DNA from: Opitutaceae bacterium
GTDB taxonomy: Bacteria > Verrucomicrobiota > Verrucomicrobiia > Opitutales > Opitutaceae
Direction: 5' to 3'
Assembly: GCA_947471115.1 (NCBI GenBank)
Contig: CANIXX010000001.1
Location: 1 to 49,906 of the forward strand
Length of the DNA stretch: 49,906 bases
The notes beneath the pieces are model-generated. The model was given only the letters and a program-made list of their open reading frames with translations. It ran no database searches and was not told where the DNA came from. Each line of letters starts with the position of its first letter. Positions within the stretch are counted from its first letter, which is position 1. The position numbers and the translations under genes are program-made. Below are positions 15,628-25,570 of the stretch, in pieces.

Positions 15628-15713
15628 GCGTTTTGCCCACGGAATACACAGAACACACCGAAACCCCATCCACGTTCTCTTTCTTCTGTGTATTCCGCGT
15701 GTTCCGTGGGCAA
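15628..15713. mobile_element. Empty (non-coding) copy of the GxxExxY-flanking inverted-repeat element
   Basis: GCCCACGGAATACACAGAACACACCGAAA ... TTCTTCTGTGTATTCCGCGTGTTCCGTGGGC; arms match 22460-22490 and 22869-22899. Confidence 0.7.
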
Positions 15714-16856: not shown

Positions 16857-16909
16857 CCCTGCCCGAGTAAAAGCCTAACCGAATAGGTTAGGCTTTTACT
16901 CGGGCAGGG
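16857..16909. repeat. TAACC-N5-GGTTA palindrome, copy 2 (perfect 24-bp arms)
   Basis: CCCTGCCCGAGTAAAAGCCTAACC-GAATA-GGTTAGGCTTTTACTCGGGCAGGG. Confidence 0.85.
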
Positions 16910-19982: not shown

Positions 19983-20028
19983 GGGAGGGAGAGCAGGGAG
20001 GGGGAGCGGAACGGGACGGAGTCGGAGG

Positions 20029-20169
20029 GTTACACAGAGGGCACATGAGGTGGCACAGAGGTCACGGAGCAAGGCAGCGGAGCGTAGTCAAAATCGGCAA
20101 TAATGAGCTTTACGGTGATAGAATTGGGCTCTGTGGCCTCAGTGCATCCTCTTGTGCCCTCTGTGAAAC
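20029..20169. repeat. CACAGAGG-unit inverted-repeat element between panB and coaC
   Basis: About 42-bp imperfect arms 20029-20070 and 20128-20169 built of CACAGAGG-like units, 57-nt spacer. Confidence 0.75.
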
Positions 20170-20179
20170 AAGTTCGGGT

Positions 20180-21717: not shown

Positions 21718-21761
21718 CGGGTTGCGAAACGGTTGGCAGGCGATTGGGTCATAGCCCAATT

Positions 21762-22436
21762 ATGAGTGAACAACCCATTTTAAAAGTCGAGCGGCTCAGC
21801 CAAACCTATCCGACCGCCGCAGGGCCGATCACGGTTTTGCACGAGGTGAGTTTTAGCCTGAGTGCGGGCGAGAGTCTGGCCATCCTCGGGCCTTCGGGCA
21901 GCGGCAAAACGACCTTGCTCGGGCTGAGTGCGGGGTTGGATCGGCCTAGCGGTGGAGAGGTGTACATTGCGGGCGAGGCGCTGGGCGGACTTGGCGAGGA
22001 CGAGCGCGCGCGGGTGCGCAATCAGCAGGTTGGCTTTGTGTTTCAAAATTTCCAGCTGATCCCGACGCTCACAGCGCTGGAAAACGTGCTTGTGCCGCTG
22101 GAGCTGCGCGGGGAAAGCGGGCGCGAGGGCGAGGCGCGGGCGCTGCTGGATCGGGTGGGGCTTGGGGCGAGAGAGGGGCATTATCCGATCCAGCTTTCGG
22201 GCGGAGAGCAGCAGCGGGTGGCGTTGGCGCGGGCGTTTATCAATACCCCGAAGATCCTTTTTTGTGACGAGCCGACGGGAAACCTCGATGGGGCGACCTC
22301 GAATGCGATGGTCGAATTGATTTTCGGATTAAACCGCGAAGCGGGCACGACGCTGGTGCTGGTGACGCATGATTTGGAGTTGGCGAAAAAATGCGGCCGG
22401 GTGCTGCGCCTGCGCGATGGAAAGGTGGTGGATTGA
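21762..22436 (+). CDS. ybbA: ABC transporter ATP-binding protein (YbbA-like)
   Basis: GPSGSGKTT, LSGGEQQRV, DEPTGNLD; tesA-ybbA-ybbP synteny. Confidence 0.9.
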   Translation: MSEQPILKVERLSQTYPTAAGPITVLHEVSFSLSAGESLAILGPSGSGKTTLLGLSAGLDRPSGGEVYIAGEALGGLGEDERARVRNQQVGFVFQNFQLIPTLTALENVLVPLELRGESGREGEARALLDRVGLGAREGHYPIQLSGGEQQRVALARAFINTPKILFCDEPTGNLDGATSNAMVELIFGLNREAGTTLVLVTHDLELAKKCGRVLRLRDGKVVD

Positions 22437-22454: not shown

Positions 22455-22905
22455 TTTTTGCCCACGGAACACACTGAATACACGGAAGAATCAGAGAATG
22501 AATCTCTCGTGTTCCACTTTCGGATAATGCCCAAAATTAACGAGAAGCCCGACGCGGATCCCAGTTGAGTGAAGATAATTTTGTAGCTGCGCACGGTGCT
22601 CATCGGTGAGTTTTGAAACTGCCTTAAGCTCAACGATGACTTTCCCGTAACAGATAAAGTCCGCCACATAATGCTGCCGCAAAGCATGCCCCTTATAAGT
22701 CAACGGCAGGGCGACCTGCGCTTTGGCTGGAATTCCCTGCAACCCAAACTCGATTTCTAGGCATTCTTGGAAGACAGCCTCCAAGAACCCACATCCTTTG
22801 TCCTTATAAACCTCAAAGCATGCCCCCAAAATCCGATACGTTTCATCCTTATTCAGTAGTTCCATAAATTCTTCCGTGTATTCCGTGTGTTCCGTGGGCC
22901 AAAAA
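22455..22905. mobile_element. Candidate hairpin mobile element: GxxExxY gene enclosed by 31-bp inverted repeats
   Basis: Arms 22460-22490 and 22869-22899 differ at one position; the ORF fills the interior; splits ybbA from ybbP. Confidence 0.7.
22491..22865 (-). CDS. GxxExxY protein (PD-(D/E)xK nuclease-like fold)
   Basis: GCGFLEAVFQECL, ADFICYGKVIVELKAV, AQLQNYL, GLLVNFG; visibly lower GC than neighbours. Confidence 0.9.
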   Translation of the reverse strand: MELLNKDETYRILGACFEVYKDKGCGFLEAVFQECLEIEFGLQGIPAKAQVALPLTYKGHALRQHYVADFICYGKVIVELKAVSKLTDEHRAQLQNYLHSTGIRVGLLVNFGHYPKVEHERFIL

Positions 22906-22999
22906 TCGGGTCTCCGGCAGTTGTCCGCCGCAGTAGCCGCCTCCCAGCAGTTCGCAGAGTAGTTCCAAAATTTCGCTTAAGAGTTCCGTGAGTAATCCT

Positions 23000-25570
23000 A
23001 TGAATTTCATCCTTAAAATGGCCTGGCGCGATTCGCGCACTTCACGCCGACGGCTCGCGCTGGTTTCACTCTCGATCGTGCTCGGCGTGGCTGCGCTGGT
23101 CGCCATCGGTTCGTTTAGCGCCAACTTACGCCATACCATCGACGTCCAAGCCAAGTCCCTGCTCGGGGCCGATCTCGCGGTCAACTCGCGCTCCGCGATT
23201 TCCCCTGAGGCGCAGGCCTTTCTCGCGGGCTTGGGCGGTGAACAGGCCAGCGAGGTCTCGTTCGCCTCGATGGTGGTTTTTCCTTCGGCGGGTAACCAGA
23301 CGCGGCTGGTTACCGTGCGCGGGTTGATGGGTGGGTATCCGTTTTATGGTGAAGTAAAAACGAGTCCGTTGGGCGCAATGGCGCGACTGCCGCAGGGTGA
23401 CGTGGTGGTGGTGGAGGAAACGTTGTTGCGGCAGTTTGGCCTCAAGGTGGGCGATCCGCTCAAGTTGGGGGAAAAAGTATTTTCCATCGCGGCGGGCTTG
23501 GAGCAGTTGCCGGGCGACTCGGCGGCGGTGGCCACCCTTTCGCCGCGAGTCCTGGTGGGGCTTGGTGCGTTGGCGGATACGGGGTTACTCAAACGCGGTT
23601 CATTGGTGCGTTACCGTGAGTATTTTAAGTTCGGCCCGGAGGTGGATTCGCAAGCACTGGTCGCGCAACAACGCGAGCGCTTCCGCGAACTGCGACTCGA
23701 CGTGGACACTGTGGAGGATCGGCGGCGCGAGCTGGGGCAGGCGCTGCAAAACGTGCAGGGGTTTCTGAGTCTGGTGGGGTTCGTGGCGTTGGTGCTGGGG
23801 GCGATCGGGGTGGCGAGCGCGGTGCATGTCTATGTGCGGCAGAAAATCACCACCGTGGCGGTGCTGCGCTGCCTCGGGGCGAGCGCGTGGCAGAGTTTTG
23901 CGGTTTACCTGGTTCAGGGGCTGGCGCTGGGTTTTGGCGGGGCGCTGGCGGGCGCGGCGGTGGGGGTGGCGGTGCAGTTGGGGCTGCCTCCGTTGGTGCG
24001 GGGGCTGCTCCCGTTTGACGTGGAGTTTTTTGTGGCGTGGGCGGCAGTGGGGCGTGGCTTGGCGGCGGGCGTGCTCGTGGGTGGGTTGTTCACCCTGCTG
24101 CCATTGCTCGCGGTGCGGCGGGTGTCGCCGCTAGTGGCCATACGCTCAGCGTTTGCCGAGCGTACGGGAACGGGCGACCCGCTGCGGTGGGCGGTGTTTG
24201 CGGCGATCGGGCTGGCGGTGGCGGGTTTCGCGGTGTGGCAAACGCAGCGCTGGTCGTGGGGGCTCGGGTTTGCCGGGGCGCTGGCGGTGAGTTTCGGGTT
24301 ATTGGCGGCGGCGGCACGCGGGGTGGCGTGGGCTGCTCGACGGTGGTTACCAAAAAGGTTGCCTTACGTGGTGCGGCAGGGCGTGGCCAACTTGCACCGG
24401 CCCAACAACCGCACCGTGCTGCTGTTGCTCTCGCTGGGGCTGGGCACCTTTTTACTGCTCACGCTGACTCTGTCGCGCGAAACGTTGCTCAGCCAGATTC
24501 GCAGCACCGAGGGCGGGGCGCGGCCCAATCTGCTGTTTTTCGATATTCAGGACGACCAGTTTACTCCGCTGGAGGCGTTGCTCGCCGCGCAGGGTGCGCC
24601 GACGCTGGCGAGCGCGCCCATCGTGACGATGCGCCTACTCAGCCTGAAGGGGCGCAAAATCGAAGCGCTGCTCAAGGACAACACGGTGGGTATTCCCTCG
24701 TGGGCGCTGCGGCGCGAGTATCGCTCCACTTACCGGGGTGCGCTGTCATCGACCGAGACGCTGGTGGCGGGTCGCTTCACGGGGCGTGTCTCTGGCGGCG
24801 GCATGGAGGTCGATAACACGGCTGGCGGCAATGGGGTGGTTAACGAGGCAGTTATCCCTATTTCCATGGAAGAAAAACTCGCGCGCGACATGCAGCTGGG
24901 GCTGGGCGACGAGGTGGAGTTTGACGTGCAAGGCGTGCCGCTAAAAACGCGCATCGAAAGCGTGCGGCGGGTGGACTGGCGGCGGATGTCACCCAATTTT
25001 TTTGTGCTCTTTCCCGAAGGGGTCTTGGAGGGGGCACCTAAGTTTTTTGTGGTGGCGACGCGAGCGGCGGATGCTGCGGAGTCGGCGCGATTGCAGCAGG
25101 CGGTGGTCGCCGCGTTCCCGAACGTCTCGGCGCTTGATCTGGCTCTAGTGCTCAAGACCTTGGACGGGATTTTTGAAAAGGTGCAGTACGTGGTGCAGTT
25201 CATGTCGTTGTTCACGGTGGCGACGGGGCTGATCGTGTTGGTCGGCGCGGTGGCGACGGGGCGGTTTCAGCGCATACAGGAAACAGTGCTGCTGCGCACG
25301 TTGGGGGCGTCGCGGGCGCAGCTCGTGCAAATTCAGCTGGTGGAAAACACGGTACTCGGGGTGCTCGGGGCGCTGGTGGGTGGCGGGCTGGCCTATGGCG
25401 CCAATGCAGCGCTGGCGGTGTGGGTGTTCAAGGCGCCCGTTATCCTGCCGCTCGCACCGCTGCTGGGCGCGGTGGTGGTGGTGACCGGGGTGACGGTGGC
25501 CACCGGGTGGTGGTCGGGGCGGGGGATCACTCGGCACCCGCCGCTGGAAGTGCTGCGCCAAGAGGCTTGA
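23000..25570 (+). CDS. ybbP: ABC transporter permease (YbbP/FtsX-MacB type, duplicated)
   Basis: MAWRDSR, LLGADL, YPFYG, AVLRCLGAS, PNLLFFDIQ, LRTLGASR. Confidence 0.9.
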   Translation: MNFILKMAWRDSRTSRRRLALVSLSIVLGVAALVAIGSFSANLRHTIDVQAKSLLGADLAVNSRSAISPEAQAFLAGLGGEQASEVSFASMVVFPSAGNQTRLVTVRGLMGGYPFYGEVKTSPLGAMARLPQGDVVVVEETLLRQFGLKVGDPLKLGEKVFSIAAGLEQLPGDSAAVATLSPRVLVGLGALADTGLLKRGSLVRYREYFKFGPEVDSQALVAQQRERFRELRLDVDTVEDRRRELGQALQNVQGFLSLVGFVALVLGAIGVASAVHVYVRQKITTVAVLRCLGASAWQSFAVYLVQGLALGFGGALAGAAVGVAVQLGLPPLVRGLLPFDVEFFVAWAAVGRGLAAGVLVGGLFTLLPLLAVRRVSPLVAIRSAFAERTGTGDPLRWAVFAAIGLAVAGFAVWQTQRWSWGLGFAGALAVSFGLLAAAARGVAWAARRWLPKRLPYVVRQGVANLHRPNNRTVLLLLSLGLGTFLLLTLTLSRETLLSQIRSTEGGARPNLLFFDIQDDQFTPLEALLAAQGAPTLASAPIVTMRLLSLKGRKIEALLKDNTVGIPSWALRREYRSTYRGALSSTETLVAGRFTGRVSGGGMEVDNTAGGNGVVNEAVIPISMEEKLARDMQLGLGDEVEFDVQGVPLKTRIESVRRVDWRRMSPNFFVLFPEGVLEGAPKFFVVATRAADAAESARLQQAVVAAFPNVSALDLALVLKTLDGIFEKVQYVVQFMSLFTVATGLIVLVGAVATGRFQRIQETVLLRTLGASRAQLVQIQLVENTVLGVLGALVGGGLAYGANAALAVWVFKAPVILPLAPLLGAVVVVTGVTVATGWWSGRGITRHPPLEVLRQEA

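What the first reader, a model, noticed from the sequence alone, without database searches (positions are those of the whole stretch)
22455..22905. GxxExxY nuclease-like gene packaged in a hairpin: candidate new class of mobile element
Seen: left arm GCCCACGGAACACACTGAATACACGGAAGAA (22460-22490) and right arm TTCTTCCGTGTATTCCGTGTGTTCCGTGGGC (22869-22899) are inverted copies with one mismatch, each built of three 9-nt CAC(G/T)GAA(T/C)A-like units and extended outward by T5/A5. The 124-aa ORF fills the loop exactly: its stop codon abuts one arm and its ATG lies 3 nt from the other, which supplies a purine-rich GGAAGA just upstream. The gene is visibly lower in GC than its neighbours and is antisense to ybbA-ybbP. 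No target-site duplication is evident. Established: GxxExxY proteins are a family of unknown function with a PD-(D/E)xK-like D...ELK motif (here the eponymous Tyr is Phe), and ybbA/ybbP are normally adjacent. Inference: arms plus gene form a minimal autonomous element with no DDE, HUH or tyrosine recombinase, mobilised by the GxxExxY protein acting on the hairpin. In the host mRNA the arms would pair and loop out the antisense ORF, echoing ORF-bearing 23S rRNA intervening sequences.
Basis: partly seen in the sequence, partly recalled or inferred. Interest (0 to 1): 0.88.

Follow-up and report, generated by a model that had tools for sequence, protein, structure and literature searches.

The report
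Hairpin-armed nuclease cassette swapped between species
A small nuclease-like gene wrapped in mirror-image repeats sits between two transporter genes, and related bacteria carry, lack, swap or flip such cassettes at this same spot regardless of kinship, which points to a likely selfish, homing-like kind of DNA that I could not find described.

Summary
In detail: 37-bp inverted arms enclose an intact GxxExxY (PF13366) gene with a Cas4-like fold. The arms are a family trait (99 of 131 relatives, against 8 of 2337 control ORFs).

In 70 family genomes chosen by ybbP alone, 30 carry a cassette at this junction. Occupancy and arm type are random on the host tree (20 changes, 17 expected), but arm type follows the protein tree (3 changes). 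Sister species hold 65%-identical cassettes between 91%-identical flanks, or identical cassettes between diverged flanks. The gene is under purifying selection.

The genome holds about 280 gene-less arm copies. No recent within-genome duplicate of the gene was seen (highest of 166 pairs: 77%), so this is a site-faithful, horizontally swapped cassette, not a free transposon. The antisense orientation is a rare flipped allele (3 of 39).

Likely mechanism (inferred, untested): the protein recognises its own arms and drives homing-like replacement, and hairpins are spread in trans as in RAYT/REPIN. Unrelated four-helix-bundle genes share the layout. The scan found this class before on other DNA (88 notes); seven literature searches found no description.

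The parts
22455..22491 (.). Left arm: T5 plus three 9-nt CAC(G/T)GAA units; lies downstream of the GxxExxY gene
22491..22865 (-). GxxExxY / PDDEXK_3 gene, 124 aa, 'GGAA-type' clade; E29, D69, K81, Q93 invariant and E79, Y97 in >=90% of 60 aligned relatives; Cas4-like PD-(D/E)XK fold
22868..22904 (.). Right arm: inverted copy, upstream of the gene; supplies the purine-rich GGAAGAA before the ATG
22958..22998 (-). Decayed copy of an arm plus gene start, likely a relic of an earlier cassette; part of the segment is shared with G001, G004 and G006
   Evidence: family D3; 1 of 2000 shuffles scores as high
21744..22436 (+). Upstream host gene, ABC ATPase (ybbA-like; name recalled)
23000..25570 (+). 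Downstream host gene, FtsX/MacB-type permease (ybbP-like; name recalled)
15633..15713 (.). Gene-less hairpin of the same GGAA arm type at another gene junction; G003 carries a full GxxExxY cassette at the same junction
20021..20170 (.). Gene-less hairpin of the CACAGAG arm type (the type of the paralogue on contig C28)

Best explanation
This is one allele of a site-faithful, horizontally exchanged cassette made of a Cas4-like nuclease gene between two inverted arms, and the protein likely recognises its own arm repeats and likely promotes homing-like copying of the cassette into the same gene junction of related genomes. Shown: the unit is gained, lost, swapped for other types and occasionally flipped at one junction; arms and protein travel together; the gene is under purifying selection; gene-less hairpins of each arm type are dispersed through the genome. 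Inferred steps: (1) the gene is normally read as part of the host operon, with its ribosome-binding site inside one arm; (2) the protein binds the three 9-nt units of each arm; (3) a cut at or near the junction of an incoming or resident allele is repaired from the cassette-bearing allele, with borders at or near the outer arm unit; (4) internal deletions leave gene-less hairpins, which the protein would multiply in trans as RAYT is thought to do for REPINs; (5) this copy was flipped by recombination between the arms in the ancestor of G000, G001 and G004, and its type was swapped afterwards.
For: Unbiased family sample: 30 of 70 junctions filled, 27 tight (16 with a 4-nt gene overlap), 13 other. 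Filled/empty makes 27 changes on an 82-genome host tree against 27.5 shuffled; arm type makes 20 changes on the host tree (17.2 shuffled) but 3 on the cassette tree (17.3 shuffled, 0 of 300); IQ-TREE gives 19 and 2 (0 of 1000). Cassette identity is uncorrelated with host identity (rho 0.03; ybbA against ybbP 0.45). Swaps are confined to the cassette: G000/G004 gene 67% between flanks of 90 and 92%; G016/G014 66% between 91 and 91%; G000/G006 at another junction 55% between 93 and 93%. The reverse also occurs: G001/G004 100% between 96 and 98%; L061/L064 99.4% between 92 and 87%. A second clade repeats it: 50 of 50 close relatives with both flanks lie at one other junction, and one pair has gene 66% with flanks 96 and 98%. 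Arms of the GGAA type are 89% identical while fourfold-degenerate sites of the same genes are 36% identical (55 pairs). Within a type pS is mostly 0.57-0.89 and pN 0.05-0.11. Arm copy number follows presence of the cognate gene across 24 genus genomes (p 0.003 and 0.04; kin not independent). Deletion products are visible (G093, G103, G096; contig C118). Catalytic-type residues are conserved and the best fold match is Cas4 SSO0001.
Against: No biochemical or RNA data. No single residue tracks the GGAA/GAAA switch across clades. Swap borders are not fixed to the base, and ordinary homologous recombination plus selection could give the same pattern. Classical free-standing homing endonucleases cut far away and leave long co-conversion tracts (PMC2988022, passages), whereas here the flanks return to background at the arms. 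How a cassette would avoid cutting itself is unexplained. 3 of 3 four-helix-bundle genes in this genome, which are not known nucleases, have comparable arms. 32 of 131 GxxExxY loci and 5 of 7 distant plasmid-borne copies fall below the arm threshold. Gene-less arms persist in genomes without the cognate gene (G005, G006).
Confidence: 0.5

Rival explanations
1. Host-useful or addictive variable locus. The nuclease benefits or addicts the cell (defence, or toxin held in check by the arm RNA or DNA), and alleles are swapped passively by homologous recombination under balancing selection, like specificity cassettes.
For: Strong purifying selection and one copy per type. Rare on plasmids (7 of 72,556 records) and not found in 50,697 phage records, as reported for domesticated RAYTs (PMC5581495, passages). 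Allele type is random on the host tree.
Against: No significant PADLOC match (best E 0.0012 over 43 residues). More than half of the family lacks the cassette at this junction. It does not explain type-specific dispersed hairpins. Over-dispersion of types among sister genomes is not significant (p 0.07-0.24).
Confidence: 0.2
2. RNA-level device like an rRNA intervening sequence. The arms pair in the operon transcript, hide the ribosome-binding site or are cut by RNase III, and so make insertion harmless; the protein does not read them and they covary only by linkage.
For: The arms fold into a stable stem on either strand. 77 of 91 armed genes are co-directional with both neighbours and no sigma-70-like promoter was found. 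Four-helix-bundle genes, the family of IVS ORFs, share the layout (PMC4990558, passages).
Against: Primary sequence is conserved far beyond synonymous sites, while spacer positions often mismatch between the two arms (match 0.54-0.75). No G-U bias to the sense strand: 59 against 99 before, and no difference after, removing close relatives. No Rfam family.
Confidence: 0.12
3. One reading: a minimal autonomous transposon that the GxxExxY protein excises at the hairpin and inserts at new sites.
For: Arms made of repeated units resemble multi-site transposon ends. The same protein type also occurs at a second junction (G009, G013), and many different junctions are used across clades.
Against: 1 of 166 within-genome pairs exceeds 70% identity (77%) among 77 loci of 22 genomes. 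About 280 arm copies in this genome, but only 5 genes, all under 50% alike. No target-site duplication. No excision or circle joint in 8 runs of contigs (contigs drop rare variants).
Confidence: 0.1
4. Invertible on/off switch: the gene flips between its arms as phase variation.
For: Both orientations exist at the same junction for both protein types.
Against: All three antisense alleles form one clade; 36 of 39 filled alleles are sense; contigs of three runs show only the antisense state.
Confidence: 0.03

Closest known systems
RAYT / REP / REPIN systems, including 'orthogroups' and 'orthoswitch' (PMC3686654, PMC5581495; passages read)
   Same: One gene per type per genome, flanked by inverted repeats whose class follows the gene; different repeat classes at the same chromosomal site in relatives; many gene-less doublets whose abundance follows the cognate gene and outlasts its loss.
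   Different: The enzyme is a Cas4-like PD-(D/E)XK protein, not an HUH/Y1 tyrosine transposase. The arms are non-palindromic tandem 9-mers that abut start and stop. Exchange here is horizontal (rho 0.03 with the host), whereas RAYTs are described as mostly vertical.
TIRtrons / TIRYTs (PMC3733652, passages read)
   Same: A gene directly enclosed by inverted repeats, some of which form dispersed repeat families.
   Different: TIRYTs are HUH tyrosine transposases; no PF01797 match was found in this genome.
Free-standing homing endonucleases of T-even phages (PMC2988022, passages read); the PD-(D/E)XK homing enzyme I-Ssp6803I (table row in PMC3424549)
   Same: Intergenic nuclease gene, patchy at a fixed site, replaced by other nucleases at the same site, translation signals tied to RNA structure.
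   Different: Bacterial chromosome rather than phage; bounded by cognate arms; exchange borders at the arms with no long co-conversion seen; satellite hairpins; cleavage not shown.
ORF-bearing 23S rRNA intervening sequences (PMC4990558, passages read)
   Same: About 430-450 nt, terminal inverted repeats of about 30 bp around one small ORF, sporadic and horizontally acquired; the four-helix-bundle family also occurs in armed cassettes in this genome.
   Different: Sits between protein genes, not in rRNA; encodes a nuclease fold; RNase III excision not tested.
Cas4 SSO0001 and RecB-like nucleases (4ic1, 4r5q)
   Same: Best structural matches (Foldseek E 6.6e-5, TM 0.59; VIA Z 8.0, rmsd 4.3, 100 aligned); E..D..ExK..QxxxY motif pattern (motif name recalled).
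   Different: 124 aa, with no conserved four-cysteine set in the alignment and no CRISPR context; Z 8 is near the background of this fold.

Membership tests
GxxExxY / PDDEXK_3 (TIGR04256, PF13366) | Profile score over the curated cut-off | tested here: met
   137.8 bits against 35; 140.5 against 22
PD-(D/E)XK nucleases | Fold and conserved acidic/lysine active-site residues | tested here: met
   Model pLDDT 95.8; top matches are PD-(D/E)XK enzymes; E29, D69, K81 invariant and E79 in >=90% of 60
PD-(D/E)XK nucleases | Measured nuclease activity | not testable with these tools
   Needs purified protein; the family is listed as 'Unknown' in PMC3424549
RAYT/REPIN and TIRtrons | HUH / Y1 tyrosine transposase | tested here: not met
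   The protein matches only PF13366; PF01797 not found in the 93%-complete genome
RAYT/REPIN and TIRtrons | Single-copy gene flanked by cognate repeats that are dispersed as doublets | tested here: met
   282 arm copies and 42 same-type hairpins; counts follow the cognate gene; no recent duplicates
RAYT/REPIN | Palindromic REP unit with GTAG/CGTC-type tag | tested here: not met
   Arms are tandem non-palindromic 9-mers
RAYT/REPIN | Mostly vertical inheritance of the gene | tested here: not met
   rho 0.03 with host identity; type random on the host tree
Free-standing homing endonuclease | Patchy, horizontally spread nuclease gene at a fixed site | tested here: met
Free-standing homing endonuclease | Co-conversion of flanking sequence | tested here: inconclusive
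   Divergence or identity ends at or within tens of bases of the arms; a few codons of the flanks are included in some pairs
Free-standing homing endonuclease | Cleaves the cassette-less allele and biases inheritance | not testable with these tools
   Needs an assay
Insertion sequence / autonomous transposon | Recent near-identical copies at unrelated sites of one genome; target-site duplication | tested here: not met
   Highest within-genome identity 77% among 166 pairs; no duplication visible
23S rRNA intervening sequence | Located inside an rRNA gene | tested here: not met
   Lies between two protein genes; no rRNA match
23S rRNA intervening sequence | Excised from RNA by RNase III | not testable with these tools

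The most novel reading that the evidence does not exclude
A new class of self-spreading DNA: a 124-residue Cas4-like nuclease whose own hairpin, in DNA or in the operon transcript, serves as scaffold and brings the two flanking sequences together as a guide. Each cassette would then home to the junction it came from, displace rival types there, and seed hundreds of gene-less hairpins; four-helix-bundle cassettes would be a second, unrelated family using the same packaging.
Probability: 0.1. Interest if true: 0.95.

Novelty: categorically new. Interest (0 to 1): 0.75.

Why it matters
It gives a testable role to a widespread protein family of unknown function and an origin for a large family of intergenic hairpin repeats (about 280 arm copies in this one 3.2-Mb genome). 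If the protein drives the exchange, this is a mobile element of about 450 bp run by an enzyme class not described in that role, converging on both RAYT/REPIN and homing. This locus supplies natural matched pairs for a specificity test: three arm types with their three protein clades at one junction, in both orientations, with empty alleles.

Tried and rejected
G-U wobble test for the strand that pairs: 59 sense against 99 antisense in 96 arm pairs (p 0.002), but the bias vanished when proteins over 60% alike were thinned; rejected as pseudo-replication.

In-frame read-through: the GxxExxY stop is in frame with ybbP in 21 of 25 sense alleles, but only in 15 of 74 at other junctions; not general.

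Residue-to-base code for GGAA against GAAA arms: no column separates 28 from 18 sequences cleanly (best 0.91, with mixed residues); inconclusive.

Excess of different types among sister genomes: p 0.07 (FastTree) and 0.24 (IQ-TREE); 4 of 10 mutual nearest pairs share a type against 0.35 expected; not significant.

Ongoing flipping or excision: joints across the arms have sides of 32 nt or less and come with other letters between, as expected from gene-less hairpins elsewhere; not counted. Only contigs were available.

Homodimer prediction: no answer, score 0.00; no evidence either way.

Rfam, promoter/terminator scan and PADLOC gave nothing significant. PDB by sequence gave only 4r5q at E 0.91. 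My first idea that tight alleles in the genus are pristine was dropped for G008, whose 27 nt look like a deletion remnant. The tree of 131 proteins is the quick IQ-TREE result; the careful search did not finish. The search for homologous proteins, the search of protein representatives, the ESM Atlas and viral contigs were not used.

Full report
OBSERVATION. The description is accurate. Two 37-nt arms (22455-22491, 22868-22904; 95% complementary) enclose a 124-aa ORF on the minus strand. It is a GxxExxY / PDDEXK_3 protein, of lower GC than its neighbours. The neighbours are an ABC ATPase and an FtsX/MacB permease, with a divergent GDSL lipase upstream (the names ybbA and ybbP are recalled). The closest named relatives of the protein are in Opitutaceae and other Verrucomicrobia. 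Single contigs of three runs of one study bridge ybbA, arm and gene in the antisense orientation.

ARMS ARE A FAMILY TRAIT. The genome has 5 GxxExxY genes. Four have inverted arms, each of a different sequence; the fifth lies among related repeats. From genus loci and 63 GTDB loci, 153 profile hits gave 132 distinct full-length genes, of which 131 were testable. Of these, 99 have an arm score of 14 or more, against 8 of 2337 control ORFs; the set is rich in kin. An upstream arm matches the downstream arm of another copy in 1-2% of pairs under 50% protein identity and in 78-100% of pairs over 70%. A second clade sampled from metagenomes gave 50 of 75 armed. Of 7 distant plasmid-borne copies only 2 are armed, so arms are not universal. 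77 of 91 armed genes with readable neighbours run with both neighbours; only 3 run against both, namely this copy and those of G001 and G004.

THE JUNCTION. I searched 101 family genomes with the YbbP N-terminus; 78 matched and 70 were fetched (the 8 weakest were not). The junction holds a GxxExxY cassette in 30 (29 sense, plus this one), is tight in 27 (16 with a 4-nt overlap), holds a hairpin in 3, other spacers in 9, and lacks ybbA in 1. With the genus loci, 82 genomes went into a host tree. Filled/empty makes 27 changes against 27.5 in shuffles. The three arm types (13 GGAA, 18 GAAA, 8 GAAT, assigned from the DNA alone) make 20 changes on the host tree (17.2 shuffled) but 3 on the cassette-protein tree (17.3 shuffled; 0 of 300). 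IQ-TREE gives 19 and 2 (0 of 1000). Cassette identity does not correlate with host identity (rho 0.03, against 0.45 between the two host genes).

SWAPS. Close relatives carry different cassettes between similar flanks: G000/G004 67% in the gene and 90/92% in the flanks; G016/G014 66% and 91/91%; G000/G006 at another junction 55% and 93/93%. Others carry nearly the same cassette between diverged flanks: G001/G004 100% and 96/98%; G009/G013 100% and 93.5% upstream; L061/L064 99.4% and 92/87%. Several other pairs look simply vertical (for example L070/L075, 96% throughout). The excess or lack of differences is confined to the cassette. Borders fall in the outer arm unit or within about 20 nt of it and are not fixed to the base; one incoming cassette left the old right arm behind. 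The second clade behaves alike: 50 of 50 relatives at 68% identity or more with both flanks lie at one other junction, and one pair has 66% in the gene with 96/98% in the flanks. The same GGAA type also occurs at a second junction in G009 and G013, so new sites are reached now and then. Recent copies within a genome were not found: 1 of 166 pairs exceeds 70% (77%) among 77 loci of 22 genomes, out of about 97 matches listed for the genus. The family is rare on plasmids (7 of 72,556 records) and was not found in 50,697 phage records at E 1e-10.

SELECTION AND PROTEIN. Apart from the identical G001/G004 pair, synonymous sites within a type are near saturation (pS 0.57-0.89) while pN is 0.05-0.11. 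E29, D69, K81 and Q93 are invariant, and E79 and Y97 nearly so, in 60 sequences. The model is confident (pLDDT 95.8), and its best match is Cas4 SSO0001, followed by other PD-(D/E)XK enzymes. GGAA-type arms are 89% identical across the family while fourfold-degenerate sites of the same genes are 36% identical (55 pairs). Spacer positions often mismatch between the two arms of one cassette, and a G-U strand bias did not survive thinning of relatives.

GENE-LESS HAIRPINS. The genome holds 282 arm copies of about eight main types and 42 same-type hairpins under 200 nt, two of them in this window. GGAA-arm counts are 3-41 in the 7 genomes with a GGAA-type gene, and 0-2 in 10 of the 11 genomes with neither type (p 0.003); for GAAA arms p is 0.04 (kin are not independent; G005 and G006 are exceptions). 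Internal deletions that leave arms are visible. No Y1/HUH transposase was found in the 93%-complete genome.

THIS COPY. The three antisense alleles form one clade yet include two protein types, so a flip was probably followed by a swap. G006, which is close to them, has the two host genes separated, with a sense-type stop and arm left before ybbP. A decayed arm-plus-gene-start lies at 22958-22998 (1 of 2000 shuffles). The flipped gene is intact; how it is transcribed is unexplained (no sigma-70-like promoter).

MECHANISM. Best reading (0.5): a homing-like cassette whose nuclease recognises its arms, is copied into the same junction of relatives by break-and-repair, and spreads gene-less hairpins in trans. 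Exchange, linkage, selection and dispersal are shown; binding, cutting and drive are inferred. Rivals: a host-useful or addictive variable locus swapped passively (0.2); an RNA-processing device like an intervening sequence (0.12); a free transposon (0.1); an invertible switch (0.03). One result against a nuclease-only view: all 3 four-helix-bundle genes of the genome have comparable arms of 7-nt units, and one junction holds such a cassette here but a GxxExxY gene in G005.

COMPARISON AND NOVELTY. It works like RAYT/REPIN orthogroups and TIRtrons (PMC3686654, PMC5581495, PMC3733652; passages), like free-standing homing endonucleases (PMC2988022; passages), and in layout like rRNA intervening sequences (PMC4990558; passages). 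It fails a tested defining feature of RAYT/REPIN, TIRtrons, insertion sequences and IVS; for homing endonucleases the pattern fits but cleavage could not be tested. Seven searches of the open library found no description. 'GxxExxY' occurs in 2 listed papers (one passage read; PMC12085832 seen as a listing only), and PF13366 is listed as 'Unknown', with multiple transfers (PMC3424549; passage). Subscription papers and supplements were not searched. The scan has noted this class before in at least 84 genomes; those notes are not independent support. What this locus adds is a host-tree against cassette-tree test at one junction across a family, and flipped alleles.

Noticed in passing
G000 contigs C57 (267-578), C296 (609-929), C129 (3562-3879); loci L026-L028: All three four-helix-bundle (TIGR02436) genes lie in inverted arms of 7-nt units, each of its own sequence; one such motif has 48 copies in the genome. 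The C57 junction holds a GxxExxY gene in G005 (L063).
   Followed up: partly
window 15633-15713: Gene-less GGAA hairpin at a junction where G003 (L030) carries a full cassette with a different arm type.
   Followed up: partly
window 20021-20170: Gene-less CACAGAG-type hairpin between the ketopantoate hydroxymethyltransferase gene and a flavoprotein gene.
   Followed up: partly
window 22905-22999; L002, L003, L162: A 70-100-nt segment before ybbP, with a conserved core, is shared by G000, G001, G004 and G006; relic of an older cassette or a promoter, unexplained.
   Followed up: partly
L004 and L162 (G006); L068 (G013); L080 (G002): Gene order breaks at or just beyond cassette arms in three genomes, suggesting that the arms are rearrangement hot spots (or assembly joins).
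   Followed up: no
ybbA-ybbP junction, sense alleles: The GxxExxY stop (TGA) is in frame with ybbP in 21 of 25 alleles with spacers of 30-45 and 198 nt; no such bias at other junctions.
   Followed up: partly
L015, L017 (G005, G019); L193, L219 (G080, G105): The same junction holds gene-less hairpins of unrelated repeat families in some genomes, so it attracts several element types.
   Followed up: no
G000 contigs C16, C29, C95, C188, C116: Long clusters of mixed-type arms in tandem and inverted order, resembling BIME-like mosaics.
   Followed up: no
G000 contigs C77 (11018-12213), C163 (1318-2126), C87: Another inverted repeat family (a 12-mer with 52 copies in the genome) brackets ordinary genes; not linked to a mobiliser here.
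   Followed up: no
window 16857-16909: A 53-nt hairpin that gives weak microRNA-model matches on both strands; probably a terminator-like or repeat element.
   Followed up: no
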